From Mobula hypostoma (taxonomy: Eukaryota), in contig NC_086097.1 of NCBI RefSeq assembly GCF_963921235.1, forward strand, positions 1,984,001-2,048,000: 64,000 bases of DNA, read 5' to 3'. A model generated the notes under the pieces. It made no database searches. It saw nothing but the letters and a program-made list of their open reading frames with translations, and was not told the origin of the DNA. The position numbers and the translations under genes are program-made. Below, piece by piece: positions 2,617-64,000 of this stretch (within the stretch, counting starts at the first letter, position 1; the number at the start of each line of letters is the position of its first letter).

Positions 2617-4603
2617 ACCATGTAATGATATAACAATTACAGCATGGAAACAGGCCATCTTGGTCCTTCTAGTCCGTGCCGAACTCTTACTCTCACCTAG
2701 TCCCACCGACCTGCACTCAGCCCATAACCCTCCATTCCTTTCCTGTCTAATTTAACTTTAAATGACAACATCGAACCTGCCTCAACCACTTCTGCTGGAA
2801 GCTCGTTCCACACAGCTACCACTCTCTGAGTAAAGAAGTTCCCCCTCATGTTACCCCTAAACTTTTGCCCTTTAACTCTCAACTCGTGTCTTGTTTGAAT
2901 CTCCCTCACTCTCAATGGAAAAAGCCTATCCACGTCAACTCTATCAATCCCCCTCATAATTTTAAATACCTCTATCAAGTCCCCCCTCAACCTTCTACGC
3001 TCCAAAGAATAAAGACCCAACTTGTTCAACCTTTCTCTGTAACTTAGGAGATGAAACCCAGGTAACATTCTAGTAAACCTTCTCTGTACTCTCTCTATTT
3101 TGTTGACATCTTTCCTATAATCTGGTGACCAAAACTGTACACAATACTCCAAATTTGGCCTCACCAATGCCTTGTACAATTTCAACATTACATCCCAACT
3201 CCTATACTGAATGCTCTGATTTATAAAGGCCAGCATACCAAAAGCTTTCTTCACCACCCTATCCACATGAGATTCCACCTTCAGGGAACTATGCACCATT
3301 ATTCCTAGTGTTACATGCTCAAGGAGATCTGTTTTTTTGTGTGAGAATGATGTAATGGTCTTTTGGAGGTCACCTGATGTAATTTTCCCACCGCTGAGGT
3401 CACGTGATGACATGTGTACCACGGGTATATAAAGGGAAGATCCCAGATGACGCAGTCAGTTTTTAGTTTGTAGATTTCCAGGTGGAATGTGCTGTGTCTC
3501 CGTTTCTGTTGCGTGTTTGTTTTTGTGACGCAGTTTCATTTTTAAAACGGAGTGTTGCGTTCTGTTGCAAGATACAATATTATTGGACTGGAAATTTTTG
3601 GCTAGATGTGCTGATTTACCCTATTCCAGCAGTAGAAGGGAGAGTGAAGGCTTTATCGAAGTACAGGACCGAAGGATTGAGAGGAGTCGGCATCGGTCGG
3701 CAGTTTAACAGAGGATCGACCATATTGAGTCTTCGTTGAAGGAGTAGCGACCTGCATCGAGATAACTCTTGCCAAAAGAGAAAAGAGTTCATGAAAGGTG
3801 CTCTATCTAAAAGGAATTTAAGGTCAGTTGTTTTAAACTGTTTATTTACTGCATCGTGAATCCTTTGGACAGAACCAGCAGGAAAGTCGCATCTATGAAG
3901 AAATCCTTCTCCAGAGAAGTCTCTCCCAATTGAACGTATAAAGCTGTTGGACTTTTGAATTTACCATTTTAAGAACTATATCTGATTTTATTGCTTTAAG
4001 AACTGTTTTTGCATTTAATACTTTAAGAACCAGTGCCGAATGACGAGTTGTTGAACGGCTGCATAACGGTTAACTTCCGGTTGAAGTTTTCGTTTGTTTT
4101 TTTTTCCTCATCTTTTATCCATGTTTAATTAATGTTTGGTTGTTTTTATATAACCTGTCTCGACTGATATTCATTGTTGCCGGTTATGTAACAGTAGATC
4201 CCTCTGTTCTACTGCATTCTTCAATGCCCTACCATTTACCATGTATGTCCTATTTTGATTAGTCCTACTAAAGTGTAGCACCTCACATTTATCAGCATTA
4301 AACTCTATCTGCCATCTTTCAGCCCACTTTTCTAACAGCCCACTCATCTCTCTGCAAGCTTTGAAAACCTACTTCATTATCCACAACTCCACCTATCTTA
4401 GTATCATCTGCATACTTACTCATCCAATTTACCACCCCATCAACCAGATCATTAATGTATATGACAAATAACATTGGACCCAGTACAGATCCATTTTACT
4501 ACTTCAATATTAATACCTAACGATTGAACCTTCCTAACCAACCTTCCATGTGGGACCTTGTCAAAGGCCTTACTGAAGTCCATATAGGCAATATGAAGTC
4601 CAT
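2617..4603 (-). mobile_element. 5'-truncated CR1 (family B) inserted in CR1-A
   Basis: RT C-terminus (LVRPNLEYCVQFWSP..GYGLSAGRWD). Flanked by ATTTA at 2612-2616 and 4604-4608. Same family as 39280-42296 and 55492-56480. Confidence 0.85.
3309..4193 (+). mobile_element. Solo LTR (885 bp, Gypsy-like) inserted in CR1-B
   Basis: Termini TGTTACA...TGTAACA, 4-bp TSD CTAG/GTAG, TATA-like GGGTATATAAAGGG at ~3423. Uninterrupted CR1-B copies read TTCCTAGATCCCTCTG (e.g. ~40211). Confidence 0.85.
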
Positions 4604-6075: not shown

Positions 6076-7011
6076 TTAGCTTAAACCCTCCCTAACAGCT
6101 CTATTAAACCTTCCCGCCAGGATATTGGTCCCCTTTGGGTTCAGGTGTAACCTGTCCTTTTTGAACAGGTCGTACTTCCCCCAGAAGAGATCCCAATTAT
6201 CCAAGAATCTGAAGCCCTGTCCCCTGCACCAGTCTCTCAGCCATGCATTCATCTGCCTGATCCTACTATTCTTGCCCTCGCTAGCACGTGGCACAGGTAG
6301 CAATCCCGAGATTACTACCCTGGAGGTCCTGCTTCTCAGCTTCCTTCCTAACTCCCGGAAATCTCTCTTCAGGACCTCCTCCTTTGTCCTCTCTATGTCA
6401 TTGGCACCAACATGTACCAAGACAACTGGCTGCTCGCCCTCCCCCTTCAGAATATTCAGGACCCGATCCGAGACATCCCGTACCCTGGCACCTGGGAGGC
6501 GACACACCATGCGGGTATCTCTAGCAGTCTCACGGAACCTCCTATCTGTTCCCCTGACTATGGAATCCCCTATGACTACCGCATTCCTCTTCTCCCTCCT
6601 TCCCTCCTGCACAACAGCGCCAGGCTCAGTGCCAGAGACCCGGTCACCGTGGGCATCCCCTGTCAGGTCATCCCCCTCAACAGGATCCAGAACAAGATAT
6701 TTGTTGCTGAGGGGGACAGCCACAGGGGTGCTCTCCACTATCCGGGCATTTTCCTTCCCTCTCCTGACAATGACCCAGTTTTCTGACCCTTGTGGCCTAG
6801 GGATGACTACTCCCTGTAGCTCCTGTCTATCACCTCTTCACTTTCCCTGATAAGCAGTAGGTCATCAAGCTGCAGCTCCAGATCCCTAACACAGTCTCTG
6901 AGGAGCCGCATCTCGGTGCACCTGGCGCAGATGTGGCCATCAGGGGAGGCTGGAGGTCTCCCAGGATTCCCACATCTGACACCCTGAACAAAGCACTAAC
7001 CCTGCGGGCAT
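6076..7011 (-). pseudogene. CR1 ORF1: N-terminal C4 zinc finger/coiled coil plus SGNH/GDSL esterase domain (frameshifted)
   Basis: ATG at 7011 gives MPAGLVLCSGCQMWE..HICARCTEMRLLRDCVRDLELQLDDL (CxxC..CxxC). Downstream motifs VIGDSIVRG, LPGA, VHVGANDI, DRLHLNPKG. Confidence 0.88.
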
Positions 7012-7664
7012 GCTATCTAATTCTACAGGAATGAAACAGGAAAAATAAGTCTACTCACCCACTTACCTCACCAAACAGACGCACTTTTTAAACCGTTAGC
7101 TCGTACCGTTAGCTGTGAGAGCCCTGCTGTTCCTGTCTGTCCGGGCCGATTCGCCAAGGGGGAAAAAAAGAGTTGGTGCTTCACTTTCGCCTCTTTCTGT
7201 CACCGCCGAAGCCCATTGAGCCAAAGCCTTACACTCTGCTACCACTCACTCCGCTGCCCGCGCCAACTGCTGCCCGCTGTATAGGGTGGTCTCCTTTTAA
7301 AACTTCCCACGCTGTCCTGTCTACGTCATGTGCCTGCGCAGTCTCGTCCCTCTTGTACTCGAAGAAGTTTTTTTAAAAAACTGCCTTCCTTCAGAATTCA
7401 GCTCTCACGCTGCTCTTCTTGTCCCGATCAAAAAAACTTGTGTGCTGGGCACAGGAAAGGTCCCCTGAAGTAATGATTCCAAGGAATTTAAAGTTGCTGA
7501 CCCTCTCCACCTCTCATCGTCCAATGAGGACCGGCTCATAGACCTCTGGTTCCTTTTCCTGAAGTCAATAATCAGCTCCTTGCTCTTGTTGACATTGAGT
7601 GAGGGATTGTTCTGGCACCAGTCAGCCAGACTTTCAATCTCCCTCCTACATACATATTTCCCAA

Positions 7665-7772
7665 AATGTCAACTGCACTTTTTTCCACAGATGCTGCCTG
7701 GTCTGTTGCGTCCCTTCAGCATTTTCTGTGTGTTGCTCGGATTTCCAGTATTTGCAGATTTTCTCTTGTTTA
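7665..7772 (+). mobile_element. Penelope-derived terminal repeat fragment (decayed)
   Basis: AGATGCTGCCTGG..CAGCATTTT..TTTCCAG..TGCAGATTTTCTCTTGTTT, the same repeat as 36822-36951. Confidence 0.6.
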
Positions 7773-8720: not shown

Positions 8721-8840
8721 CATCAGCACCCTCCACCGAGCACTCAAGCATGCAGCAAGCATCAATATAGACACAGAGTAACACACATCAAAGTTGCTGG
8801 TGAACGCAGCAGGCCAGGCAGCAACTCTAGGAAGAGGTAC

Positions 8841-8876
8841 AGTCGACGTTTCAGGCCGAGACCCTTCGTCAGGACT
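8841..8876 (-). ncRNA. Minimal type-I hammerhead ribozyme motif within a Penelope-like terminal repeat (repeat spans ~8779-8912)
   Basis: Minus strand reads AGUC-CUGACGA-AGGGUCUCGGCCU-GAAA-CGUC-GACU: helix I AGUC/GACU, intact core, helix II AGG/CCU, palindromic ACGU helix III and GUC cleavage triplet. Confidence 0.8.
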
Positions 8877-8957
8877 AACTGAAAGAAGAGCTAGTAAGAG
8901 ATTTGAAAGTGGAGTACCCCAAAGACTACTCGTTCACCTGGTATTCGACATACCACA

Positions 8958-30721: not shown

Positions 30722-31117
30722 TAGCCTCCAACCTGATGGCATGAACATCAATTTCTCAACTTCCGGCAATGTCCCCACCTTCCCTTCCTTCACCATCTCC
30801 CATCCCCTTTCCCTCTCTCACCTCATCTCCTTGCCCACCCATCGCCTCCTCTGCCGCTCCTCCCCCCACTTTTCCTTTCTTCCATGGCCTTCTGTCTCTT
30901 TCACCAAGCAACTTCCCAGCTCTTTACTTCATCCCTCTCCCTTCACGTTTCACCTGTCACCTTATGTTTCTCTCTTCCCTCCCTTCACCTTTTAAATCAA
31001 CTCCTCAGCACTTTTTCTCCAGTCCTGCTGAAGGGTTTTGGCCCGAAACATCAACTGTACTTTTTTCCATAGATGCTGCTTGGCCTGCTCAGTTCCTCCA
31101 GCATTTTGTGTGTGTTG
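30722..31117 (+). mobile_element. Penelope-like 3' end (endonuclease C-terminus, pyrimidine-rich UTR, terminal repeat with decayed hammerhead at 31021-31056)
   Basis: SLQPDGMNINFS, then AGTCCTGCTGAAGGGTTTTGGCCCGAAACATCAACT. Confidence 0.75.
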
Positions 31118-34165: not shown

Positions 34166-34417
34166 TCTGATTCCGATGAATGAATTTGTTCAGGTTTTGC
34201 TGCCTGTTCCCTGCAGGCAAATCTCTCCACGGGTAGTGCAAATTCTGAAAATTACTCTTTCCACCTTCTGAGCTTTCTAAAATAGACAGACATTAAACAA
34301 TATATACTGCTTGAGTGGGAAGTTGATATAGAGGAGTCATCTACTCTAAAACCTTGTTTCCTGAAAATAGTTCTATAGAATTAAAGAATGCATTTGCAAA
34401 GATGCTTCATGGTTATA

Positions 34418-34960
34418 CACATAAAATACTGAAGGAACTCAGCAGGTCAGGTAGCTGAATAAAAGTCGATGTTTTGGGCCACGACCCTTCATCAGGAGAG
34501 GAAGGGAAGGGAAGGGAAGGGAAGGGAAGGGAAGGGAAGGGAAGGGAAGGGAAGGGAAGGGGAAGAAACCAGAATAAGGAGGTGGGGAGGGAAGGGAGGG
34601 GAGAGTTGAAACCTGGTGGTCAGGGGATGGGATGAAGTAAAGGCTGGGAGTTGAAAGGCGGAAAAGGTAAAGGTATGGAGGAGAAGGAATCTGGTAGAAG
34701 AGAGTGGACCATGGGAGAAAGGGAAGGAGGAGGAGAATCCCCATTGGGAGGTGACAGGCAGCTGAGGAGAGAAGATGAGAGGTCAGAGTGGGGAATTGAA
34801 GAAGAGGGAAGTGGAGGGGAACGCTCACCAGAAGCTGGAAAAATTGATGTTCATGCCATTGGGTTGGAGGCTACCTAGATGGAATATGAAGTGTTGGTCC
34901 TCCACCCTGAGAGTAACCGCCTCGTGGCAGGAGAGGAGACCACAGACCAACATGCTGGAA
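34418..34960 (-). mobile_element. Penelope-like 3' end with decayed hammerhead (34464-34497) and an internal (GGAAG)n expansion (34499-34561)
   Basis: Minus strand LRVEDQHFIFHLGSLQPNGMNINFS and CCTGATGAAGGGTCGTGGCCCAAAACATCGACT. Confidence 0.75.
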
Positions 34961-35744: not shown

Positions 35745-36697
35745 TCCACCCCTCTGACTCTCAATACAGGAGCCCCTCAGGGCTGCGTACTGAGTCCCCT
35801 CCTTTACTCACTGTATACCCACGACTGTATCACCACCCACAGCTCTAATCTGCTAATTAAATTTGCCGATGATACTACATCGATTAGCCATATCTCAAAC
35901 AATAACAAAGTGGCCTACAGGGAAGTAGTCATCACCCTGACACAGTGGTGTCAAGAAAACAACATCTCCTTCAATGTCGCAAAAACAAAGGAGCTGGTTG
36001 TGGACTACAGGAGGAATGGAGACGGGCTAACCCCTATTGATATCGACGGACCTGGGGTTGAGAGGATAAACGGCTTCAACTTCCTTGTCAACCACATCAC
36101 CGAGGACCTCACGTGGTCTGTACACACCAGCTGTGTGGTGAAAAAGACACAACAGTGCCTCTTTCACCTCAGACGGTTGAGGAAGTTTGGTATGGGTCCC
36201 CAGATCCTAAGAACTTCCTACGGGGCACAATTGAGAGCATCCTGACTGGCTGCATCACTGCCTAGTTTGGGAACTGTACCTCCCTTAATCGCAGGACTCT
36301 GCAGAGAGTGGTGCGGACAGCCCAGCACATCTATAGTTGTGAACTTCTCATGATCCAGGACATTTACAAGGACAGGTGTGTAAAAAGGGCCCATAAGATC
36401 ATTGGGGACCTGAGTCACCCCAACCACAATCTATTCCAGCTGCTATCATCCGGGAAACGGTACCGCAGCATAAAAGTCAGGACCAACAGGCTCCGGGACA
36501 GCTTCTTCCACCAGGCCATCAGGCTGATTAACTCACGCTGATCTGACTGTATTCTATGTTACATTGACCGTTCTATTTATTGTAAATTATTATGAATTTC
36601 TATGATTGCCCATTGCACATTTAGATGGAGACGTAACATGAAGATTTTTGCTCCTCATGTATGTGAAGGATGTAAGAAATAAAGTCAATTCAATTCA
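35745..36697 (+). mobile_element. Rex1/Babar RT to 3' end
   Basis: TGAPQGCVLSPLLYSLYTHDC..KFADDTT, WCQENNISFNVAKTKELVVDYRR, LSSGKRYRSIKVRTNRLRDSFF and (CAATT)n tail. Confidence 0.9.
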
Positions 36698-36821: not shown

Positions 36822-36951
36822 TTTTGATGAAGGGTCTCGGCCTGAAACATCGACTGTAGTTTTTTCCATAGATGCTGCCTGGCCTGCTGAGTTCCTCCAG
36901 CATTTTGTGTGTGTTGCTGAATTTCCAGCATCTGCAGATTTTCTCTTGTTT
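36822..36951 (+). mobile_element. Penelope-derived terminal repeat with 5'-clipped hammerhead motif
   Basis: TTGATGAAGGGTCTCGGCCTGAAACATCGACT. Flanked by the direct repeat GATTACTTT at ~36815 and ~36954. Confidence 0.7.
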
Positions 36952-37524: not shown

Positions 37525-38278
37525 ATGCATTAGTGATAATTTTTCAAAACTCTTTAGATTCTGGACTAGTTCCTGAGGATTGGAGGGTGGCTAATGTAAC
37601 CCCACTTTTTAAAAAAGGAGGGAGAGAGAAACCGGGGAATTATAGACCGGTTAGACTGACATCGGTGGTGGGGAAAATGCTAGATCAGTTATCAAGGATG
37701 TGATAACAGCACATTTGGAAAGCGGTGAAATCATCGGACAAAGTCAGCATGGATTTGTGAAAGGAAAATCATGTCTGACGAATCTCATAGAATTTTTTGA
37801 GGATGTAACTAGTAGAGTGGATAGGGGAGAACCAGTGGATGTGGTATATTGGATTTTCAAAAGGCTTTTGACAAGGTCCCACACAGGAGATTAGTGTTCC
37901 AACTTAAAGCACACGGTATTGGGGGTAAGGTATTGATGTGGATAGAGAATTGGTTAGCAGACAGGAAGCAAAGAGTGGGAATAAACGGGACCTTTTCAGA
38001 ATGGCAGGTGGTGACTAGTGGGGTACCGCAAGGCTCAGTGCTGGGACCCCAGTTGTTTACAATATATATTAATGACTTAGATGAGGGAATTAAATGCAGC
38101 ATCTCCAAGTTTGCGGATGACACGAAGCTGGGCGGCAGTGTTAGCTATGAGGAGGATGATAAGAGGATGCAGTGTGACTTGGATAGATTAGGTGAGTGGG
38201 CAAATTCATGGCAGATGCAATTTAATGTGGATAAATGTGAAGTTATCCACTTCGGTGGCAAAAGCAAGAAAACAGATT
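37525..38278 (+). mobile_element. Young CR1 (family D) RT fragment
   Basis: [32 protein letters not shown]. Nearly identical to 63416-64000. Confidence 0.92.
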
Positions 38279-38647
38279 AGGAAAAGGGGAAAACCCATCC
38301 CTGAACAGAGGAGGTGGGGTATGACACCACCCATCAGCTATACACAATGCAGTCCTAACATCTCTACCCCAGCATCTCCACAACAGTTCACACCTCCATT
38401 CAAGCAAAGGAAAGACTAATGACCCTCTCATTACCTCTACAATTCTTAACGACCCTCATGTGATTACTATACCTTCAAACACCTCACCGAGTTTATAAAC
38501 CAGAAAACTACCTGCCATGGATCAGAACTGAAGAAGGTGAGTGGCGAAACATCTTCGAGACAAGACCACAAGTCCATTTGCCTTGATTTACTCCTGCTTG
38601 ATGTGTAATGTCCTGGGTGATGAGAACCTTCATAGATATGGTTGATC

Positions 38648-38950: not shown

Positions 38951-39755
38951 CTAGATAGCAGATGTACTTAATGAATACTTTGCTTCAGTATTTACTGCAG
39001 AAAAGGATCTTGGCGATTGTAGTGATGACTTGCAGCAGACGGAAAAGCTTGAGAATATAGACATTAAGAAAGAGGATGTGCTGGGGCTTTTGGAAAGCAT
39101 CAAGTTGGATAAGTCACCGGGACCGGACTGGATGTACCCCAAGTTACTGTGGGAGGCAAGGGAGGAAATTGTTGAGCCTCTGGGAATGATCTTTGCATCA
39201 TCAATGGGGACGGGAGAGGTTCTGGAGGATTGGAGGGCTGCAGATGTTGTTCCCTTATTCAAGAAAGGGAGTACAGATAACCATATATCCATATAACAAC
39301 TACAACACGGAAATAGGCCATCTCGGCCCTTCTAGTCTGTGCCGAACGCTTACTCTCACCTAGTCCCACCGACCTGCACTCAGCCCATAACCCTCCATTC
39401 CTTTCCTGTCCTTATACCTATCCAATTTTTCTTTGAATGACAATACCGAACTTGCCTCAACCACTTCTGCTGGAAGCTCATTCCACACAGCTACCACTCT
39501 CTGAGTAAAGGAAGTTCCCCCTCATGTTACCCCTAAACTTTTGCCCTTTAACTCTCAACTCATGTCCTCTTGTTTGAATCTCCCCCACTCTCAATGGAAA
39601 AAGCCTATCCATGTCAACTCTGTCGAACCCCCTCATAATTTTAAATACCTCTATCAAGTCCCCCCTCAACCTTCTGCACTCCAAAGAATAAAAACCCAAC
39701 TTGTTCAACCTTTCTCTGTAACTTAGGAGATGAAACCCAGGCAACATTCTAGTAA

Positions 39756-39971
39756 CATACATCAAAGTTGCTGGTGAATGCAGCAGGCCAGGCAGCATCT
39801 ATAGGAAGAGGCGCAGTCGACGTTTCAGGCCGAGACCCTTCGTCAGGACAAAGTCCTGAAACGTCGACTGCGCCTCTTCCTATAGATGCTGCCTGGCCTG
39901 CTGCGTTCACCAGCAACTTTGATGTATGTTGCTTGAATTTCCAGCATCTGCAGAATTCCTGTTGTTTGCGT
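39756..39971. mobile_element. 216-bp Penelope-derived inverted-repeat insertion with 14-bp TSD
   Basis: TSD CAACATTCTAGTAA at 39742-39755 and 39972-39985. Arms ~39754-39829 and ~39855-39930 are near-perfect reverse complements. Confidence 0.9.
39816..39849 (-). ncRNA. Minimal type-I hammerhead ribozyme motif (intact core)
   Basis: GUC-CUGACGA-AGGGUCUCGGCCU-GAAA-CGUC-GAC, core identical to 8841-8876. Confidence 0.8.
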
Positions 39972-41107
39972 CAACATTCTAGTAAATCTTCTCTGCACTC
40001 TCTCTATCTTGTTGACATCTTTCCTATAATTCGGTGACCAGAACTGTACACAATACTCCAAATTTGGCCTCACCAATACCTTGTACAATTTTAACATTAC
40101 ATTTTAACTCCTATACTCAATGCTCTGATTTATAAAGGCCAGCACACCAAAAGCTTTCTTCACCACCCTATCCACATGAGATTCCACTCTCAGGGAACTA
40201 TGCACCATTATTCCTAGATCCCTCTGTTCTACTGCATTCTTCAATGCCCTACCATTTACCATGTATGTCCTATTTTGATTCGTCCTACCAAAATGTAGCA
40301 CCTCACACTTATCAGCATTAAACTCCATCTGCCATCTTTCAGCCCACTCTTCTAACTGGCCCAAATCTCTCTGCAAGCTCTGAAAACCTGCTTCGTTATC
40401 CACAACGCCACCTATCTTAGTATTATCTGCATACTTACTAATCCAATTTACCACCCCATCATCTAGATTATTAATGTATATGACAAACAACATTGAACCC
40501 AATACAGATCCCTGAGGCACACCACTAGTCACCGGCCTCCAACCAACAAACAGTTATCCACCACTACTCTCTGGCATCTCCCATCCAGCCACTGTTGAAT
40601 CCATTTTACTACTTCAATATTAATACCTAACGATTGAACCTTCCTAACTACATTCTTTATATTCCTCGAGCACCTCATTTCCTCCATGCTGCCTATACTT
40701 ATTGTAGATATCTCTCTTTTTCCGAACCAAGTTTCCAATATCCCTTGAAAACCATGGCTGTCTCAAACTTTTAACCTTTCCTTTCAACCTAACAGGAATA
40801 TAAAGATCCTGTACCCTCAAAATTTCACCTTTAAATGACCTCCATTTCTCTATTACATCCTTCCCATAGAACAATTCATCCCAATCTACTCCTTCTAAAT
40901 CCTTTCGCATCTCCTCAAAGTTAGCCTTTCTCCAATCAAAAATCTCATCCCTGGGTCCAGACCCATCCTTCTGCATAATTATATTGAAACTAATAGCATT
41001 GTGATCACTGGACCCAAAGTGCTCCCCAGCTAATACCTCCATCACCTGACCTATCTCATTCCCTAACAGGAGATCCATCACTGCTCCTTCTCTAGTTGGT
41101 ATCTCTA

Positions 41108-41407
41108 GCTTCTTTCCAACTGTGATAAGACTGCTGAACGGATCCTGACCCGGATCTGGGTTGTACCCTCCAAATATCCGGACCTGCCTCTCCGTTTTTT
41201 TGCACTACCTTACTTTCCATTTTTCTATTTTCTATTTATGATTTATAATTTAAATTTTTAATATTTACTAATTTTTACTATTTTAAATATTTTTAATATT
41301 TAATATTTGTAATTCAGGGAGCGGGAAGTGCAGAATCAAATATCGCTGAGATGATTGTATGTTCTAGTATCAATTGTTTGGCGACAATAAAGTATGAAGT
41401 ATAAAGT
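41108..41407 (+). mobile_element. Short Rex1-type 3' end inserted in CR1-B
   Basis: SFFPTVIRLLN codons, AT-rich UTR, AATAAA and (AAGTAT.)n tail. Confidence 0.75.
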
Positions 41408-42602
41408 ATGTATTGCTGCAAAAAAACTATCCTACACACATTTTACAAACTCCAAACCATCCAGCCCTTTTACAGTATGGGCTTCCCAGTCTATGTGTGG
41501 AAAGTTAAAATCTCCCACAATCACAACCTTGTGCTTACTACAAATATCTGCTATCTCCTTACAAATTTGCTCCTCCACTTCTTGCTCCCCATTTGGTGGT
41601 CTATAATACACCCCCATAAGTGTTACTACACCTTTTCCATTCCTCAATTCCACCCAAATAGCCTCCCTAGACGAGCCCTCTAATCTATCTTGCCAGAGCA
41701 CCGCTGTAATATTTTCTCTGACAAGCAATGCAACACCTCCCTCTCTTGGTCCTCCGATTCTATCACACCTGAAGCAATGAAATCCAGGAATATTTAGTTG
41801 CCAATCACACCCCTCCTGCAACCACGTTTCGCTAATAGATACCATATCATACTTCCAGGTATTAATCCATGCTTTAAGCTCATCCATCTTTCTTATAATG
41901 CTCCTTGCATTAAAATAAATGCATTTAAGAAATTTTCCACCTCTTACTCTCTGTTTACCACTAACGGTGCAAACAACTTTACTATTTTCTTTTTCTTCCT
42001 TTTTCCCCACATCTTTTCCTACACTCTGGTTCCCCTCCCCCATCGTATCTAGTTTAAATCCACCGGAGCCTCTCTAGCAAATCTACCTGCAAGAATATTT
42101 GTCCCCCTCCAGTTCAGATGTAAACCGTCCCACCAGAATAGGTCCCACCTTCCCTGGAAAACTGCCCAATTATCTATAAATCTGAAGCCCTCCCTCCTGC
42201 ACCATGTCTTCAGCCACGTGTTGATCTGCGCTATCTTACTATTTCTAAACCCACCTGCACGTGGCACTGGTAGCAATCCTGAGATTGCTATCCTGGAGAT
42301 AGTCCAGGAAATTATAGGCCAGTGAGTCTTACTTCAGTGGTTGGTAAGTTGATGGAGAAGATCCTGAGAGGCAGGATTTATGAACATTTGGAGAGGTATA
42401 ATATGATTAGGAATAGTCAGCATGGCTTTGTCAAGGGCAGGTCGTGCCTTACGAGCCTGATTGAATTTTTTGAGGATGTGACTAAACACATTGATGAAGG
42501 TAGAGCAATAGATGTAGTGTATATGGATTTCAGCAAGGCAGTGGATAAAGTACCCCATGCAAGGCTTATTGAGAAAGTAAAGAGGCATGGGATCCAAGGG
42601 GA

Positions 42603-47798: not shown

Positions 47799-50611
47799 AA
47801 CCTACACTTTATCCTCCCTGCTTATCCATCATATCCTATAAAAAAACCCTGTAACCCTTAAGAAAGCTAAAAATACCCTGACCTGTGCTCTCTCATCCAT
47901 GCCCAGCAACCCTTTTAATGTGAATTCCTGCACCTCCAATTCCCTTAGATTGATTATCATCATCTCTGCATCCCATACTTCCAGCAACTCAGTACTACAT
48001 GTTCTACTGACTCCTCTTCCTGACATTCCTCACACAATCCTGTCTGGTGTTTCCCTATCATTTTCAATTTTTTGTTTAATGCACAGTGCCCCGGCCTTAA
48101 ACTAGTCCGCACAGTTTCCTCTCATCTGTTTCCATTACCTACCCTAGTACCTGCAACACTCTTTTGTATTTGATATAAATGCCTCCCTTTCCCCTCCCTG
48201 TCCCATCCTTCTTGCCACATTTGGTTGATTTTTTCCCAGATTACACACTTAACCTCTGCTTTACTGATACTAATGTGCATTTCTATATTTTCTTTCTTTA
48301 ACGCCCTCTTTGCCAACTCATCCACCCTCTCATTCCCCTTCACCCCTACATGTGCTGGAACCCATAGAAATTTTACCTGACCTCCCTGATTTGCAATTCT
48401 TGTGACTAACTGAAGGACTTCATGAAGTACATCTTGCCGACTGTTTGAGTGAAAAGACCTTAAATTTGCTAGAACTGAGGATGAATCTGAGCATACCAAC
48501 ACTTTGGCTTGTCTGGCTTTCTGCACCCATCGCAACGCAACCAACACTGCCAGCATCTCCACTGTATACACCCCTAACTTATTAGATGTTCTTCTACTGA
48601 TTCCAATTTCTTTTGCTGGTACAGCCACCCCAAACCCTGTCACTCCTGTTTCAGGTTCCTTAGCACCATCCGTATAAATCTGAGTGTAATCACTATACTT
48701 TTCCATCACATGACAGTTAAATGCACTTACCAGATCAGCTTTATATTTTCCTTTCCATTTTACCTCTAACAAATGCCAGTCTAGGTCAGGCCATACAAGC
48801 TTCCATGGAGCTACAACCGGATAAACTACTAAAGGACTTATCCTTAGATCAAATACTCCACATTCTTTCGCGATATCATTCCCTACCCGATTAAAGTTAT
48901 CCCTCTGAAACCTCCCATTTTCCCAGCAGTCCTGCAACACTCCTTTAGCAGGGTGAGAATCATTGTGCCCCTGCAAATTAGCCCAGTAGTTTGCCATCAA
49001 TTGCATCCTTCTTAGTTCCAGAGGCATTATTCCCATTTCTACCTGTAGTGCTGACACTGGTGACGTTTTAAAAGCCCCACTGCACACTCTCAAGGCCTGA
49101 GCCTGAATCACATCCAGTTTCCTTATAAGAGACCTAGCTGCTGATCCATATACTATATTTCCATAATCCAATACAGATCTTACTAAAGCCACATACATTC
49201 TCTTCAAAGCTGAACAACTTGCTCCTCATTCCCTACCAGTCAAACATCTCATCACATTTATTACTTTTTTACATTTCTCCTCAACTTTCCTGATATGTTC
49301 TGCCCATGTTAATCGTGAATCAAATATAACTCCCAGAAATTTAAATGATGCAACCCTTTCTAATTCAACCCCATACATCCTTAACTTCTTCCCTACCTCA
49401 ACCCTTTTCCTGGTGAAAAATACAGTTTGAGTTTTATCTACTGAAAATCTACATCCCCAATCATAACCCCACTCTACCACTTCATCAATTGCTTCTTGTA
49501 GTTTCCTGATTATATGCTCCATGTTCCTGCCTCTTTTCCACAAGGCCCCATCGTCCGCAAACAGTGACCTACCTATATCCACTGGTACCTTTGTGAAGAC
49601 ATCATTGATCATAATGATGAAAAGTAACGGGCTAATCACACTACCTTGAGGTGTGCCATTTTCCACTATGTACTGTTTTGATCATTCTGATCCAATCCGA
49701 ACTTGAATTTTTCTACCAAACAAAAAATCTTTAATCCAATTAAAAACTCTCCCATCAATCCCCATCTTGTGCAGTTTAATTAATAATCCTTCCTTCCACA
49801 TCATATCACATGCTTTTTCAATGTCAAAAAACACTGCAACTACTGACTCTTTATTTGCCTGGGCCTTTCTTATTTCAGTCTCTAACCTTATCACTGAGTC
49901 CATGGAATTCCTTCCCTTTCTAAATCCACTCTGATATCTTGCCAGCATTCCTCTCTTCTCAAGCTCATACGATAACCTTTCTGTTATCATCCTTTCCATT
50001 ATCTTACATATATTTGATGTTAATGCAATTGGTCTGTAGCTAGTGGGTTTTGATGGATCCTTGCCAGGTTTCCTTATTGGAATTACTACTGCTTCTTTCC
50101 ATGCCCTTGGTAATCTTCCCTCCTCCCACACTCTGTTATAAAAATGCAGCAACTTCAAGAGCGCTCCTTCTCCTAGATTTTTTAGCATCACAGAGCATAT
50201 CAGACCTTTCCCTGGGGAGGTTGGTCTCGACCTTTTTATTGCTCTTACTATTTCTGCCAATGTAAATGGATCATCAATTATATCATCTGTTTCTTCCCTC
50301 CTGTTTAGCACACCTGGGTGTTGGCTCATTGTTCTTTCCCTTCTCTTTCTCCCTTCTTCAGACAAATTTTCTGAACTGTGTATCAGTACAAATGGCCTGG
50401 CCATGATTTCAGCCTTATCCCTACTGGAGACTGCCGTTTCCTCCTTAGATATCATTACTGGATATTCCCATTCCCTTCTATCTCCCCCCATCCTCTTAAC
50501 CATTCCCCATACCTCTCCCACAGGTGTTGTTCTTCCTATTTCGTTGCAAAAACTCCTCCAACTTGCCCTTTTAGTTTGACGTATAGATCTTCTCACCACT
50601 GCCTGTGCTTT

Positions 50612-52074
50612 CATAGTCATAGTCATACTTTATTGATCCCGGGGGAAATTGCTTTTCATTACAGTTGCTCCATAAATAATAACTAGTAATAGAACCATAA
50701 ATAGTTAAATAGTAATATGTAAATTATGCCAGTAAATTATGAAATAAGTCCAGGACCAGCCTATTGGCTCAGGGTGTCTGACCCTCCAAGGGAGGAGTTG
50801 TAAAGTTTGATGGCCATAGGCAGGAATGACTTCCTATGACGCTCAGTGCTGCATCTCGGTGGAATGAGTCTCTGGCTGAATGTACTCCTGTGCCCAGCCA
50901 GTACATTATGTAGTGGATGGGAGACATTGTCCAAGATGGCATGCAACTTAGACAGCATCCTCTTTTCAGACACCACCGTCAGAGAGTCCAGTTCCATCCC
51001 CACAATATCACTGACCTTACGAATGAGTTTGTTGATTCTGTTGGTGTCTGCTACCCTCAGCCTGCTGCCCCAGCACACAACAGCAAACATGATAGCACTG
51101 GCCACCACCGACTCGTAGAACATCCTCAGCATCGTCCGGCAGATGTTAAAGGACCTCAGTCTCCTCAGGAAATAGAGACGGCTCTGACCCTTCTTGTAGA
51201 CAGCCTCAGTGTTCTTTGACCAGTCCAGTTTATTGTCAATTCGTATCCCCAGGTACTTGTAATCCTCCACCATGTCCACACTGACCCCCTGGATGGAAAC
51301 AGGGGTCACCGGTGCCTTAGCCCTCCTCAGGCCTACCACCAGCTCCTTAGTCTTTTTCACATTAAGCTGCAGATAATTCTGCTCACACCATGTGACAAAG
51401 TTTCCTACCGTAGCCCTGTACTCAGCCTCATCTCCCTTGCTGATGCATCCAACTATGGCAGAGTCATCCGAAAACTTCTGAAGATGACAAGCCTCTGTGC
51501 AGTAGTTGAAGTCCGAGGTGTAAATGGTGAAGAGAAAGGGAGACAAGACAGTCCCTGTGGAGCCCCAGTGCTACTGATCACTCTGTCGGACACACGGTGT
51601 TGCAAGCACACATACTGTGGTCTGCCAGTCAGGTAATCAAGAATCCATGACACCAGGGAAGTATCCACCTGCATCGCTGTCAGCTTCTCCCCCAGCAGAG
51701 CAGGGCGGATGGTTTTGAACGCACTGGAGAAGTCAAAAAACATGACCCTCACGGTGCTCGCTGGCTTGTCCAGGTAAGCGTAGACACGGTTCAGCAGGTA
51801 GATGATGGCATCCTCAACTCCTAGTCGGGACTGGTAGGCGAAATGGAGGGGATCTAAGTGTGGCCTGACCATAGGCCAGAGCAGCTCCAGAACAAGTCTC
51901 TCCAGGGTCTTCATGATGTGGGAGGTCAATGCCACTGGTCTGTAGTCATTGAGGCCGCTGGGACGCGGCGTCTTCGGCACAGGGACGAGGCAGGACGTCT
52001 TCCACAGTACAGGAACCCTCCGGAGCCTCAGGCTCAGGTTGAATACATGGCGAAGTACTCCACATAGCTGAGGG
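50612..52074 (-). mobile_element. Young 5'-truncated Rex1/Babar LINE (RT) inserted in Nimb-B
   Basis: YRPVALTSHIMKTLER, FFDFSSAF, TGAPQG, QKFSDDSAIVG, LNVKKTKELVV, one frameshift, (GACTAT)n tail. Confidence 0.92.
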
Positions 52075-53268: not shown

Positions 53269-53989
53269 TTAGACACGGTTTCCGATGTAGGCAGTAGCAC
53301 AGTTTGAATACTGTTTCAGCTTCTTCAGTTTCTCCTCCAGCAAGGAATTCGCAAAAGGTTGTACCTGAGCAAATTTGGGGCTACACTGAAACAATGGTGC
53401 CCCAGTCCAAGTGCGGATAACAAACTGATGTGTGCCTGATTTAAGTGCCAAACGAGTTAAGGCATCGAGGCAGAGGCCATAGGACGTAGCCATGTTCAGC
53501 TGAATATTCTGTCCGGGTTTACGCATCTCTGTGCTGAACTGTCTCCGGGGCTGTGGTCTGCAGTCATCGGGCTCCTGGACTGGTGTCACTTGCCTCTGTG
53601 CTGAAATGTCTCCGGGGCTGTGAACTCACTCTCAGGGTGTCTGCAGTTCACGTTCTGTGTGGTATTTGTTTACTTGTTTATTGTTTGGATAATTTGTTCT
53701 TTTCTCACACATTGGGGGTTTGACGGTTTGTTCTGTGTGGGGCAGGGTTTTTCAGGGATTCTATTGCGTTTCTTTGTTTAGTGGCTGCCTGCAAGAAGAC
53801 AAACCTCAAGGATGTGTATAGTCTGCGTAGTTTGATAATAAATGTACTTTGAACTTTGAACTTGTTACTTTGGGACTGGAAGTGATTGGTCAGGTTTGAA
53901 GGGGCGGATACTCCTGATCCTCAAACTTATATATCCACATCAGTCTGCAGAGGCTGGAATCCAAAGCATCACATCATCAGGATTGAGTG

Positions 53990-54215
53990 ACACACACAAC
54001 ATGCAGGAGGAACTCAGCAGGTCAGGCAGCATCAATGGAATTTCATAAACTGTTGGCGTTTCAGGCCGAGACCCTTCAGCAGGATTGAAAAGGAAAGGTG
54101 GAAGGTGACAGAATAAGAGGGTGGGTGAGGGGAATGAGGACAGGTTAGTAGATAGGTGAAGGCCAGGTGGGTGAGGAGGGGGATGATGTGAGAAGCTGGA
54201 GGTGAGAAGTGGAAA
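53990..54215 (-). mobile_element. Penelope-derived terminal repeat with decayed hammerhead (a further fragment at ~54878-54990)
   Basis: Minus strand ATCCTGCTGAAGGGTCTCGGCCTGAAACGCCAAC. Confidence 0.65.
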
Positions 54216-55491
54216 AGTTCAGACATATAACAGGTAGCCGGCATTGAAACCTGCCGGCAAGAACCCGTCAACGTGTCCTCATTTTCCCTCCTTTCATTTA
54301 ATTGTTGCAACTTTATGTTCTTTGCACTGCCACATAGTAAACTGGACTCTGATTCTTTTCACTTCCATTTGAATTCACATTTTAGTGAATGACGGGTCTT
54401 TAAAATGATGAGAGGTTTTGTTTGAGAGGGTATGTTTGTGCTTGAGTAAACTGAAAATAGGGCCCATTAATTTATGACAGTCATCTAAAAAAAATGAGGT
54501 GGTAATATAATTTTCTTTTGCCTGGAGTGCTGTTAATGTGGAAATTGCAAACTAAAGTTAATTTAGATGTATTGACCAAGAGTCAGTGAGAGAGAAAAGG
54601 TTTTGCTGATAGATTTTATTGAGAATAGATAAAGGATGAAGACCGAATGGCCAACTCCAGGCTGTAAATTCTACATGAGAGTCACAGGAAAGCACAACAC
54701 AGGGGCAAGTCCCTCAGCCCATCTAGTTCCTGCTGAGCCATTTACTCCCATCGACCACAGCCCTCCATACCCCTACCATCCACATATTTATCCAGACTTC
54801 TCTTAAACATCAGAATCAAAATCACACGCACTATGACCCCCTGAGTGAAAGAATTGTTTTGTCAGAATGCACAAAAGTAACACGAGAAAGTCTGCAGATG
54901 CTGGAAATCCAGAGCAACACACACAAAATGTTGGAGGAGACCAGCAGATCAAGCAGCATCATGTTTGGCCGAGACCCTTCACCAGGACTTACCGATTAAT
55001 TAACTGATTGATGGAGCTATGGGAAGAAACTGCAGTCTGCCCTACATGTGACCCCAGGGGCGCAGATAATGTACTTACTTCCTAGCAAAGGTAACCAGAA
55101 AACTAATAACTTTGACCTTGTCAATGATACTTGTGTTTTTCTGATTAATGTAAAAGATGAAAATAGTTCTTATTTACATCCCAGAGTGGAGTTAATTTAG
55201 CCACAAACAGCTCTTGTATCCAATGTATTAATTAACTGTTTGATAAATCTCATAAAATAAATCAGTTAGAAGACATTCAATTATCACAGTAGAAGAAATT
55301 ATTCAGGACAGAGCCCAAACCAGCAGGGTGAAGTTCCTTCTCTCTGATCTCAGTGTCTGCATCTTGTGTCAGGCCAGTCCAGAGCTACCTGGTAACCCGA
55401 TTACGACGAAAGGTGTTTGTTGTTCACTATGCAATAGGCTGTGAAGGGCAGAATTCTGCACCAGCTCACAGCATTTATCACAATACGTTAT

Positions 55492-56480
55492 AACCATATA
55501 ACAATTACAGCACGGAAACAGGCCATCTCAGCCCTTCTAGTCCGTGCCGAACGCTTACTCTCATCTAGTCCCACCGACCTGCACTCAGCCCATAACCCTC
55601 CATTCCTTTCCCGTCCATATAGCTGTCCAACTTAACTTTAAATGACAACATCGAACCTGCCTCAACCACTTCTGCTGGAAGCTCGTTCCACACAGCTAGC
55701 ACTCTCTGAGTAAAGAAGTTCCCCCTCATGTTACAGCTAAACTTTTGCCCTTTAACTCTCAACTCATGTCCTCTTGTTTGAATCTCCCCCACTCTCTGTG
55801 GAAAAAGCCTATCCACATCAACTCTATCTATCCCCCTCATAATTTTAAATACCTCTATCAAGTCCCCCCTCAACCTTCTATAAAGACCCAACTTGTTCAA
55901 CCTTTCGCTGTAACTTAGGAGATGAAACCCAGGCAACATTTTAGTAAACCTCCTCTGTACTCTCTCAATTTTATTGACATCTTTCCTATAATTCAGTGAC
56001 CAGAACTGTACACAATACTCCAAATTTGTCCTTACCAATGCCTTATACAATTTCAACATTACATCCCAACTCCTATACTCAATGCTCTGATTTATAAAAG
56101 CCAGCATAACAAAAGCTTTCTTCACCACCCTATCCACATGAGATTCCACCTTCAGGGAACTATGCACCATTATTCCTAGATCCCTCTGTTCTACTGCATT
56201 CTTCAATGCCCTACCATTTACCATGTATGTCCTATTTTGATTCATCCTACCAAAATGTAGCACCTCACGTTTATCAGCATTAAGCTCCATCTGCCATCTT
56301 TCAGCCCGCTCTTCAAACTGGCCTAAATCTCAATGCAAGCTTTGAAAACCTACTTCATTATCCACAACGCCACCTATCTTAGTATCATTTGCATACTTAC
56401 TCATCCGATTTACCACCCCATCATCCAGATCATTAATGTGTATGACAAACAACATTGGACCCAGTACAGATCCCTGAGGC
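55492..56480 (-). mobile_element. 5'-truncated CR1 family B
   Basis: 241-aa ORF LEYCVQFWS..FFTQRVLAVWNELP..GYGLSAGRWD and AACCATATA tail. Confidence 0.92.
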
Positions 56481-60560: not shown

Positions 60561-60979
60561 AAGGAAGTGTATTATACTTAGACATTGTCTTAACAAGTTG
60601 ATGTATCTGGGAAAAAAATCTTCATATTTCATGGTTACTGAATGGAGCAAAACTGTTTGTGGAATAAATGCATTGGTGTCACATTAATTAGAATTCACAA
60701 ATGTTTTAGGATGAAGGCGTGAGAGAAAGACTCTGATGGAAATCAAGGAATAAACTTAACACAAAAGATGCCGCAGTTGCCGGAAGTCCAGAGTAACACG
60801 CACAAAATGCTGCAGGATCCAAACAGCTCAGGCAGCCTCTATGGAGAGAAATAAACAGTCAGCATTTTGCTCTGAGGCCCTTGTTGAAGGACATGGTTTG
60901 ATGATTGCCTCTGGTCTGAAACATAAACTGTTTATTCCTCTCCATAGATGCTGCCTTACCCACTGGGTTCAGATTTTAG

Positions 60980-63041: not shown

Positions 63042-64000
63042 AGACTATGAGAGAAAACTGGCGGGGAACATAAAAACTGACTGTAAAAGCTTTTATAGAT
63101 ATGTAAAAAGGAAAAGACTGGTAAAGACAAATGTAGGTCCCCTGCAGACAGAAACAGGTGAATTGATTATGGGGAGCAAGGACATGGCAGACCAATTGAA
63201 TAATTACTTTGGTTCTGTCTTCACTAAGGAGGACATAAATAATCTTCCAGAAATAGTAGGGGACAGAGGGTCCAGTGAGATGGAGGAACTGAGCGAAATA
63301 CATGTTAGTAGGGAAGTGGTGTTGGGTAAATTGAAGGGATTAAAGGCAGATAAATCCCCAGGGCCAGATGGTCTGCATCCCAGAGTGCTTAAGGAAGAAG
63401 CCCAAGAAATAGTGGATGCATTAGTGATAATTTTTCAAAACTCGTTAGATTCTGGACTAGTTCCTGAGGATTGGAGGGTGGCTAATGTAACCCCACTTTT
63501 TAAAAAAGGAGGGAGAGAGAAACCGGGGAATTATAGACCGGTTAGCCTAACGTCGGTGGTGGGGAAACTGCTGGAGTCAGTTATCAAAGATGTGATAACA
63601 GCACATTTGGAAAGTGGTGAAATCATCGGACAAAGTCAGCATGGATTTGTGAAAGGAAAATCATGTCTGACGAATCTCATAGAATTTTTTGAGGATGTAA
63701 CTAGTAGAGTAGATAGGGGAGAACCAGTGGATGTGGTATATTTGGATTTTCAAAAGGCTTTTGACAAGGTCCCACACAGGAGATTAGTGTGCAAACTTAA
63801 AGCACACGGTATTGGGGGTAAGATATTGATGTGGATAGAGAATTGGTTAGCAGACAGGAAGCAAAGCGTGGGAATAAACGGGACCTTTTCAGAATGGCAG
63901 GCAGTGACTAGTGGGGTACCGCAAGGCTCAGTGCTGGGACCCCAGTTGTTTACAATATATATTAATGACTTAGATGAGGGAATTAAATGCAGCATCTCCA
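63042..64000 (+). mobile_element. Young 5'-truncated CR1 (family D), uninterrupted ORF2 frame running off the window end
   Basis: My translation shows no stop or frameshift from [20 protein letters not shown] through [40 protein letters not shown] and [14 protein letters not shown]. It is absent from the ORF track because no stop codon falls in the window. Confidence 0.92.

What the first reader, a model, noticed from the sequence alone, without database searches (positions are those of the whole stretch)
39742..39985. 216-bp non-coding hairpin insertion carrying an intact hammerhead ribozyme, flanked by a perfect 14-bp TSD
Seen: a CR1 is interrupted by 39756-39971 with CAACATTCTAGTAA duplicated exactly on both sides. 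The insert is two head-to-head copies of a Penelope-type terminal repeat with ~76-bp near-perfect arms. The minus-strand arm holds a complete minimal hammerhead (GUC-CUGACGA-AGGGUCUCGGCCU-GAAACGUC-GAC). The plus-strand arm reads AGTCCTGA|AACGTCGACT, so it has lost the 18 nt between two CCTGA repeats, removing helix II and part of the core. Known: Penelope-like elements carry minimal hammerheads and often insert with an inverted pseudo-LTR. Inference: this is a recent, protein-free ribozyme module mobilised in trans. It is either a retrozyme-like mini-element family or an extreme truncation product, and transcription from either strand would give a long dsRNA hairpin.
Basis: partly seen in the sequence, partly recalled or inferred. 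Interest (0 to 1): 0.8.

Follow-up and report, generated by a model that had tools for sequence, protein, structure and literature searches.

The report
Truncated head-to-head Penelope-type retroelement insertion
A young 216-base insertion inside an older LINE is two inverted copies of the ribozyme-bearing end of a Penelope-type retroelement, an insertion pattern already described for these elements and most likely a dead-on-arrival by-product, not a new kind of mobile ribozyme.

Summary
A 216-bp insert (39756-39971) lies between perfect 14-bp duplications. Two uninterrupted paralogs of the host LINE in the window carry that 14-mer once. The insert is two head-to-head copies of a ~150-bp retroelement end. 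The 74-nt arms differ at one CpG site. The minus-strand arm keeps every core base of a minimal, helix-III-less hammerhead. The plus-strand arm lacks 18 nt of it and alone carries a 43-nt 3' tail.

Published work on Penelope-like elements (PLEs) describes each of these features: a minimal hammerhead in the terminal repeat, an inverted 5'-truncated copy, a 30-40-bp tail at one end, a short palindrome at the inversion, and a duplicated target site. Eight other single-orientation copies lie in the window, with and without the tail.

I read the insert as an extremely 5'-truncated product of one PLE integration event, most likely primed from both nicked strands. The ribozyme is intact only as sequence. 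Any transcript spanning both arms folds into a -163 kcal/mol hairpin, and the hammerhead-compatible fold costs 30.9 kcal/mol more. No same-strand partner for the required dimer lies nearby.

No genome is held and the public contigs were too repeat-swamped, so I could not test whether the hairpin form is a family. No PLE coding sequence was found in the window.

The parts
39742..39755 (.). Left copy of the 14-bp target-site duplication. Its last 10 nt match the reverse complement of the first 10 nt of the tail at 8 of 10 positions.
39756..39849 (-). Left arm: an inverted copy of the retroelement 3' module, read on the minus strand. It runs from the 5' edge of the hammerhead (39849) to the tail-less terminus (39756).
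   Evidence: Family copies continue past 39849 (loose end; c8800).
39819..39846 (-). Minimal hammerhead core CTGACGA-A-GGGTCTCGGCCT-GAAA-CGTC. All core bases are present and helix III is absent. The expected cut lies between 39819 and 39818.
   Evidence: features compared with PMC4209133. No Rfam hit.
39850..39852 (.). AAA at the inversion junction. It is the centre of the 7-nt palindrome TCAGGAC/GTCCTGA, and 1-2 of the three bases may belong to the right arm.
39853..39928 (+). Right arm: a direct copy of the same module, with 18 nt (helix II and part of the core) missing between 39859 and 39860.
39929..39971 (+). 43-nt 3' tail, present on the right arm only. It is shared by five other copies in the window.
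   Evidence: Family 3' ends at 39969 and 39971 with diverse flanks.
39972..39985 (.). Right copy of the 14-bp target-site duplication.
39278..42333 (-). Host non-LTR retrotransposon: GDSL-esterase-like fragment (sub-threshold match, where ORF1 would lie) at 42049-42333, APE at 41432-42073, RT at 40104-40553, 3' end near 39278 with an 8-bp microsatellite.

Best explanation
The insert is the product of one integration event by Penelope-like element (PLE) machinery. It is an extremely 5'-truncated, head-to-head pair of the element's 3'-terminal module.

Inferred steps:
1. The element's endonuclease cut the two strands of a LINE copy 14 bp apart.
2. Each free 3' end primed reverse transcription of PLE RNA at one of the family's two adjacent start sites. 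The bottom strand started at the end with the tail (39971). The top strand started at the tail-less end (39756), helped by 8 of 10 complementary bases.
3. Both cDNAs ran about 95-120 nt to the 5' edge of the hammerhead. They were joined there with 1-3 filler bases.
4. One arm lost 18 nt by slippage between two CCTGA repeats across helix II.

The result has no ORF and no head-to-tail partner, so it is most likely inert as a mobile element. Its hammerhead is a passenger. In any transcript covering both arms it is locked inside a roughly 74-bp double-stranded stem and should not cleave.
For: **Shown here:**
- The target site is exact, with the 14-mer present once in two paralogs. Both arms therefore entered in one event.
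- The arms differ at 1 of 74 positions, a CpG change.
- Both outer ends are family termini. Besides the right arm, 5 of 8 other window copies carry the tail. Besides the left arm, 3 of 8 stop within about 5 nt of the left arm's end. Contigs of other copies leave the stretch at 39969 and 39971 into diverse flanks.
- Both arms are 5'-truncated within 1-3 nt of each other. Other copies continue upstream (c8800; the loose end at 39849, 7 contigs).
- The target and the tail start match at 8 of 10 positions, P about 4e-4.
- The hairpin folds at -163 and -164.7 kcal/mol. The hammerhead-compatible fold costs +30.9 kcal/mol.

**From papers:**
- PLE insertions often carry an inverted 5'-truncated copy, and a 30-40-bp tail often at one end only (PMC8557442, passages).
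- Inverted pLTRs with 8-10-bp duplications and palindromes at the inversion are described in PMC3846280 (passages).
- A purified PLE protein cleaves and extends both DNA strands, and starts reverse transcription at two adjacent internal sites that define the tail (PMC11167929, main text).
- Minimal hammerheads without helix III sit in PLE terminal repeats, and pairs on opposite strands 100-700 bp apart have been seen (PMC4209133, main text).
Against: - No PLE coding sequence was found. None of the 157 scanned frames of 90 aa or more (of 158 listed) matches GIY-YIG, and every RT hit that has an endonuclease nearby sits beside an APE-type one. The PLE origin of the module therefore rests on anatomy alone.
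- Priming from both strands needs two RNA copies that end at nearly the same 5' base. No reason for such a defined end is shown.
- PMC11167929 reports that priming does not depend on homology with the cut DNA, yet here 8 of 10 bases match.
- The 18-nt loss could equally be a later deletion.
- Whether the same junction exists elsewhere in the genome was not testable. The contigs laid were too short and repeat-swamped.
Confidence: 0.55

Rival explanations
1. The same single PLE event, but made by one target-primed cDNA. It reached the RNA 5' end, snapped back on itself (self-priming) and copied its own arm. The upstream join was made by microhomology, and the 18 nt were lost later from one arm.
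For: - Both arms end within 1-3 nt of each other around a 7-nt palindrome with a 3-nt centre.
- Self-priming is the explanation offered for palindromes at PLE inversion junctions (PMC3846280 discussion).
- The 8 of 10 match at the left junction fits microhomology joining.
Against: - Neither arm can be a plain copy of the other. The left arm holds 18 nt that the right lacks, and the right holds a 43-nt genuine family tail that the left lacks.
- The left end coincides with the family's tail-less terminus. A snap-back copy gives no reason for that.
- It needs one extra event, the later deletion.
Confidence: 0.15
2. The hairpin is a member of a small non-autonomous family. An RNA read from a pre-existing head-to-head terminal-repeat junction was reverse-transcribed by PLE enzymes in trans, so the junction (AAA and the 18-nt loss) was inherited from a master copy.
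For: - PLE terminal repeats alone suffice for mobilisation of unrelated sequence in trans (PMC3846280).
- Reverse transcription starts internally at the tail site (PMC11167929). A transcript running from an inverted repeat into the next direct repeat could therefore yield exactly this unit.
- Non-autonomous PLE derivatives are reported (PMC8557442; bioRxiv 10.64898/2026.07.22.740005, abstract and results part 1).
Against: - The junction 23-mer is unique in the 64-kb window, and none of the 8 other module loci is head-to-head.
- The left end sits at a canonical terminus instead of a random truncation point or a piece of master-locus flank.
- There is no direct test, because no genome is held.
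Confidence: 0.15
3. The module is the 3' tail of a LINE or SINE-type retroposon rather than of a PLE. The inversion arose by LINE-style twin priming, and the hammerhead-like motif is incidental.
For: - The window is packed with APE-type LINEs and holds no GIY-YIG ORF.
- One copy (36825-36951) lies about 130 bp after a LINE fragment.
- The tail region gives a weak sub-threshold match to the UnaL2 LINE 3' element (15.9 bits against a 55-bit threshold).
Against: - Homology between that LINE and its paralog stops at 36697, before the module.
- The host LINE family ends at about 39278 without the module.
- Two discrete 3' termini about 40 nt apart are a PLE signature, not seen in LINE integration (PMC8557442, PMC11167929).
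- The motif has every hammerhead core base plus the extra base after A9 and the palindromic 15.2-16.2 pair described for PLE ribozymes (PMC4209133).
- Classical twin priming inverts without duplicating, whereas here 74 nt are present twice.
Confidence: 0.1
4. A DNA-level foldback or MITE-type transposon with terminal inverted repeats.
For: Long inverted repeats flanked by a target-site duplication.
Against: - The right end has 43 unpaired nt, so the inverted repeat is not terminal on both sides.
- All 8 other copies are single-orientation and variably 5'-truncated, as retroposed copies are.
- From recall, not from a call: a 14-bp duplication is longer than those of known cut-and-paste families.
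Confidence: 0.03

Closest known systems
Penelope-like element insertions with an inverted 5'-truncated copy and a one-sided tail (Evgen'ev and Arkhipova; described in PMC8557442 and PMC3846280)
   Same: Head-to-head inverted terminal repeats, a short palindrome at the inversion, a tail of about 30-40 bp at one end only, a short target-site duplication, heavy 5' truncation, and a hammerhead motif in the repeat.
   Different: Here nothing lies between or after the two repeats. There is no ORF and no direct repeat, and the whole unit is 216 bp. The tail is 43 nt. No RT plus GIY-YIG ORF could be linked to this module.
Minimal hammerheads of PLE terminal repeats (Cervera and de la Pena 2014, PMC4209133)
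   Same: CUGANGA and GAAA boxes, an extra base between A9 and 10.1, no helix III or loop 3, a palindromic 15.2-16.2 (C-G), and a GUC cleavage triplet. Pairs of motifs on opposite strands 100-700 bp apart were noted there.
   Different: Position 11.1 is U, so the closing pair of helix II is G.U (or A-U in another register) and not the G-C reported as highly conserved. Helix I next to the core is only 3 bp in this truncated copy.
In vitro integration by the Anolis PLE protein PAc (Frangieh et al. 2024, PMC11167929)
   Same: Both DNA strands are cut and extended. There are two adjacent internal start sites whose spacing equals the tail. Ribozyme cleavage is not needed for insertion. The start sites lie roughly 60-110 nt after the hammerhead cut site.
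   Different: That work is biochemical and used a reptile element. It did not show a completed head-to-head product. Here the top-strand junction has 8 of 10 matching bases, whereas that paper stresses the lack of homology.
Metazoan non-LTR retrozymes (Cervera and de la Pena 2020, PMC7229834, listing and abstract only; bioRxiv 10.64898/2026.07.22.740005)
   Same: Small, non-coding, hammerhead-bearing, derived from PLE terminal repeats.
   Different: Retrozymes are head-to-tail tandem units that give circular RNAs. This is a single inverted pair with one complete ribozyme.
L1 twin-priming inversions (recalled: Ostertag and Kazazian 2001; not read here)
   Same: The second nicked strand primes on the RNA by microhomology and gives a 5' inversion inside one target-site duplication.
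   Different: Twin priming inverts adjacent parts of one RNA. Here the same 74 nt are present in both orientations, and both ends are 3'-type termini.

Membership tests
Penelope-like element (terminal repeat / 3' module) | Hammerhead motif in the terminal repeat | tested here: met
   The core at 39819-39846 (-) has all conserved bases. Its features match the text of PMC4209133.
Penelope-like element (terminal repeat / 3' module) | [quoted passage not shown] | tested here: met
   A 43-nt tail on the right arm only. Of the 8 other window copies, 5 have the tail and 3 end without it.
Penelope-like element (terminal repeat / 3' module) | Inverted 5'-truncated copy adjoining a direct copy, inside one target-site duplication | tested here: met
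Penelope-like element (terminal repeat / 3' module) | Same repeat flanking an ORF with telomerase-like RT and GIY-YIG endonuclease | tested here: inconclusive
   None of the 157 scanned frames of 90 aa or more (of 158 listed) matches GIY-YIG. No genome is held in which to look further.
Hammerhead ribozyme, type I (Rfam models) | Conserved core C3-A9, G12-A14, A15.1-U16.1, H17 | tested here: met
   Read directly.
Hammerhead ribozyme, type I (Rfam models) | Three helices, including helix III, and a match to a curated model | tested here: not met
   There are no bases between 15.2 and 16.2. No hammerhead family matches at the gathering score or at E<=10.
Hammerhead ribozyme, type I (Rfam models) | G10.1-C11.1 closing pair of helix II | tested here: not met
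   11.1 is U here and in c8800, c36830 and c54000. c31040 and c34450 have C.
Hammerhead ribozyme, type I (Rfam models) | Self-cleavage | not testable with these tools
   The predicted active fold is 30.9 kcal/mol above the hairpin. The only other intact core in the window, at 8845-8872 (-), is 31 kb away.
Metazoan non-LTR retrozyme | Head-to-tail tandem units, each with a hammerhead | tested here: not met
   The only direct repeat is the 14-bp duplication. No tandem array lies over the insert.
MITE / foldback DNA transposon | Inverted repeats that reach both termini | tested here: not met
   43 unpaired nt at the right end.

The most novel reading that the evidence does not exclude
The 216-bp hairpin is a founding or current member of a self-contained 'retro-hairpin' family. 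In this reading, two inverted PLE ends, each carrying a reverse-transcription start site, are the minimal unit that PLE enzymes can copy from either strand. Its transcripts, being near-perfect 74-bp hairpins that cover the PLE ribozyme and start-site region, would feed the small-RNA pathway and silence the parent elements.
Probability: 0.1. Interest if true: 0.55.

Novelty: new member of a known kind. Interest (0 to 1): 0.22.

Why it matters
The insert is a very clean natural example of PLE integration. One event preserves an exact empty site, both alternative 3' termini on opposite strands, and the inversion junction. That anatomy is what the 2024 in vitro finding predicts, namely that a PLE protein cuts and extends both DNA strands from two adjacent start sites. 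Systematic collection of such minimal head-to-head inserts could therefore show how PLE inverted repeats arise in vivo.

It adds nothing new about ribozymes. The hammerhead here is a passenger that should be inactive.

Tried and rejected
- **Whole-genome search** for the junction: no genome is held.
- **Public runs**: four runs from four coded organism labels were laid, and all are short contigs. Between 3,097 and 39,828 contigs per run landed on the 851-base stretch, because both the LINE and the module are highly repeated. No piece spans the stretch, and no locus-specific empty allele, junction copy number or expression could be read. Depths were not used, as the tool warns. X9 is only guessed to be RNA.
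- **Collection scans:**
  - The head-to-head pattern gave 0 hits in metagenome contigs.
  - The plain module pattern also gave 0 hits there, so that collection holds none of this family and the first blank means nothing.
  - Viral contigs gave 0 hits.
  - Bacterial and archaeal genomes gave 11 hits. None has the full motif. The two I read look like ordinary prokaryotic DNA unrelated to the module, and I take all 11 as chance.
- **Earlier findings of this scan:** three look-ups, nothing found.
The frame is also not kept between copies (my reading).
- **Third match to the loose hammerhead pattern** at 38528-38553 (+): it has no helix II and no family context, so I take it as chance.
- **Rfam sub-threshold matches to miRNA precursors** (47 bits against a 103-bit threshold, and others): these reflect any long hairpin and are not evidence of a miRNA gene.
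- **Lunse et al. 2017** on dimeric PLE hammerheads is not held. It is known here only through the review PMC6765202.
- **Helix II covariation** across window copies: too few copies, and too decayed, to say anything.

Full report
**Observation**

The only direct repeat in 39500-40200 is the 14-mer CAACATTCTAGTAA, at 39742-39755 and 39972-39985. The only inverted repeat pairs 39746-39829 with 39855-39938.

The left and right flanks align at 90-93% identity to two other copies of the same repeat in the window, at 55506-56462 and 2638-3308. In both copies the two alignments overlap by exactly the 14-mer. A three-way alignment shows the paralogs running straight through with one copy of the 14-mer or a one-base variant. 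So 39756-39971 is a 216-bp insertion that duplicated 14 bp of target, and both arms arrived in that one event.

Inside the insert the arms are 74 nt each and differ at one position, 39779 against 39905, a CpG to TpG change. The perfect duplication and near-identical arms mark the event as young compared with the host copy, which differs from its paralogs by about 7-10%.

**The host**

On the minus strand, frames around the insert match several LINE domains:
- RVT_1 at 40104-40553.
- Exo_endo_phos at 41432-42073.
- A GDSL-lipase-like domain at 42049-42333. This match is below Pfam's threshold (30.6 against 32.9 bits). It lies where ORF1 would be.

Homology among the three copies stops at about 39278, next to a short 8-bp microsatellite. 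The host is therefore a minus-strand non-LTR retrotransposon with APE and RT.

**The inserted module**

BLAST and alignment find eight other copies of the same ~150-bp module in the window, all in single orientation:

| Copy | Coordinates | Strand |
|---|---|---|
| c8800 | 8777-8884 | - |
| c36830 | 36825-36951 | + |
| c7664 | 7664-7771 | + |
| c31040 | 31026-31117 | + |
| c54000 | 53982-54084 | - |
| c54900 | 54879-54960 | - |
| c34450 | 34417-34494 | - |
| c60800 | 60773-60860 | - |

The closest, c8800, is 90-92% identical. Their 5' ends vary, as expected of retroposed, 5'-truncated copies.

Their 3' ends fall into two classes:
- Five copies, like the right arm, run on through TTGCT-GAATTTCCAGCATCTGCAG...TTGTTT.
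- Three copies (c8800, c31040, c34450) stop within about 5 nt of where the left arm stops.

In the right arm this extra tail is 43 nt, 39929-39971.

Contigs of other copies in public runs support these boundaries:
- They leave the stretch at 39969 and 39971 into unrelated flanks (8 and 9 contigs in X9).
- At 39849 they continue with TAACTGAAGG... (7 contigs, full agreement), which is also what c8800 has upstream.

So both arms are truncated at the 5' edge of the ribozyme motif, within 1-3 nt of each other. Both outer ends of the insert are ordinary 3' termini of the family, one of each class.

**The ribozyme motif**

On the minus strand, 39849-39816 reads GUC-CUGACGA-A-GGGUCUCGGCCU-GAAA-CGUC-GAC. 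Every conserved core base is present: C3-A9, G12-A14, A15.1, U16.1 and C17.

Several features match the text description of the minimal hammerheads of PLE terminal repeats (PMC4209133, main text):
- There is one extra base after A9.
- There is no helix III or loop 3.
- Positions 15.2-16.2 are the palindromic C-G.

It departs from that description at position 11.1, which is U. The closing pair of helix II is therefore G.U, or A-U in another register.

The loose pattern CTGANGA-N10-16-GAAACNTC occurs three times in the window against 0.04 expected. Two of those are this family, at 39819-39846 and 8845-8872. By my reading, the other copies have lost core bases, which suggests no selection on inserted copies. 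No Rfam hammerhead model matches, at gathering scores over the whole window or at E<=10 over 501 bases. That is expected for a motif without helix III.

**Will it cleave?**

Published work says these minimal motifs act, weakly, only as dimers of two same-strand copies (PMC4209133; review PMC6765202). In one reptile element the ribozyme cleaved only with the element's protein and was not needed for insertion (PMC11167929).

Here the plus-strand arm has lost helix II. The only other intact same-strand core in the window is 31 kb away.

RNA of either strand folds into one long hairpin, at -163 and -164.7 kcal/mol with z-scores of -23 and -22. In that hairpin the GAAA box and the cleavage site are paired with the antisense arm. 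Forcing helices I and II and an open core costs 30.9 kcal/mol. The ribozyme is intact as sequence, but I predict it to be inactive in this setting. That prediction is an inference from folding, not an assay.

**What made it**

Published PLE anatomy fits point by point:
- An inverted 5'-truncated copy next to a direct copy.
- A 30-40-bp tail, often at one end only.
- Complex tandem or inverted insertions (PMC8557442, passages).
- Inverted terminal repeats with 8-10-bp duplications, a 31-bp optional tail and palindromes at the inversion (PMC3846280, passages).

The biochemical study of an Anolis PLE shows three things (PMC11167929). The protein cuts and extends both strands. Reverse transcription starts at two adjacent internal sites. 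The tail is the stretch between those sites.

The insert looks like the completed product of such an event. One cDNA was primed from the bottom strand at the tail site. The other was primed from the top strand at the tail-less site. The two met head-to-head at the ribozyme's 5' edge.

The 10 target bases next to the left arm match the start of the tail at 8 of 10 positions (P about 4e-4). That suggests annealing helped the top-strand priming or the join.

Neither arm can be a simple copy of the other. One holds 18 nt and the other 43 nt that its partner lacks. That weighs against pure snap-back synthesis, although snap-back followed by a later deletion remains possible.

A retro-copy of a pre-formed junction (the 'family' reading) would not explain why the left end falls at a canonical terminus. 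I could not test it directly.

**What is missing**

- No PLE ORF was found. None of the 157 scanned frames of 90 aa or more (of 158 listed) matches GIY-YIG. The PLE assignment rests on the motif, the two termini and the inverted layout.
- No genome is held.
- The public contigs are too short and too repeat-rich to show an empty allele or to count the junction.
- The other collections hold none of this family. The 11 bacterial hits lack the full motif, and I take them as chance.
- From recall only, the module resembles very abundant repeats of cartilaginous fishes. No call here tests that.

**Verdict**

The thing is real, but it is an extreme, tidy example of a known insertion pattern of Penelope-type retroelements. 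It is not a retrozyme, and nothing shows it to be a mobile family of its own. Its modest value is as a natural record of PLE integration from both strands.

Noticed in passing
window 8845-8872 (-), within copy 8777-8884: This is the only other copy in the window with all hammerhead core bases. It is single-orientation and tail-less, and it retains about 25 nt of family sequence upstream of the core, which looks like a pyrimidine tract ending in CAG.
   Followed up: partly
window 34417-34530 (-): A module copy whose 5' end abuts a (CCCTT)n microsatellite. The abstract of PMC8557442 reports an insertion bias of PLEs for microsatellites.
   Followed up: no
window 39885-39910 and the same block in all copies (alignment A3): GATGCTGCCTGGCCTGCTG is the best conserved block of the module in all 10 arms and copies. 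It can pair UGCUG with CAGCA just upstream of the tail-less terminus, so it may be the recognition stem-loop for the start of reverse transcription.
   Followed up: no
window 38528-38553 (+): A third match to the loose hammerhead pattern (CTGAAGA...GAAACATC). It has no helix II and no family context, and is probably chance.
   Followed up: partly
window 37525-38107 and 63416-64000: Two RT-coding LINE stretches that are 97% identical, far younger than the other LINE copies in the window.
   Followed up: no
window 48122-50629 (-): RNase H (48122-49225) lies downstream of RT (49226-50629) on the minus strand. This is a different retroelement type from the APE-type LINEs that fill the rest of the window.
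   Followed up: no
window 6076-6837 (-) and 42049-42333 (-): GDSL-lipase/esterase-like frames next to LINE APE domains. The first passes Pfam's threshold and the second is below it. They may be esterase-type ORF1s.
   Followed up: no
run X2, joint 39849 to 39819 (table 5c): One contig joins the 5' edge of the ribozyme core back to its cleavage site with a single T between. That would be a head-to-tail mini-repeat of about 31 nt somewhere in that organism. It rests on one low-depth contig only.
   Followed up: no
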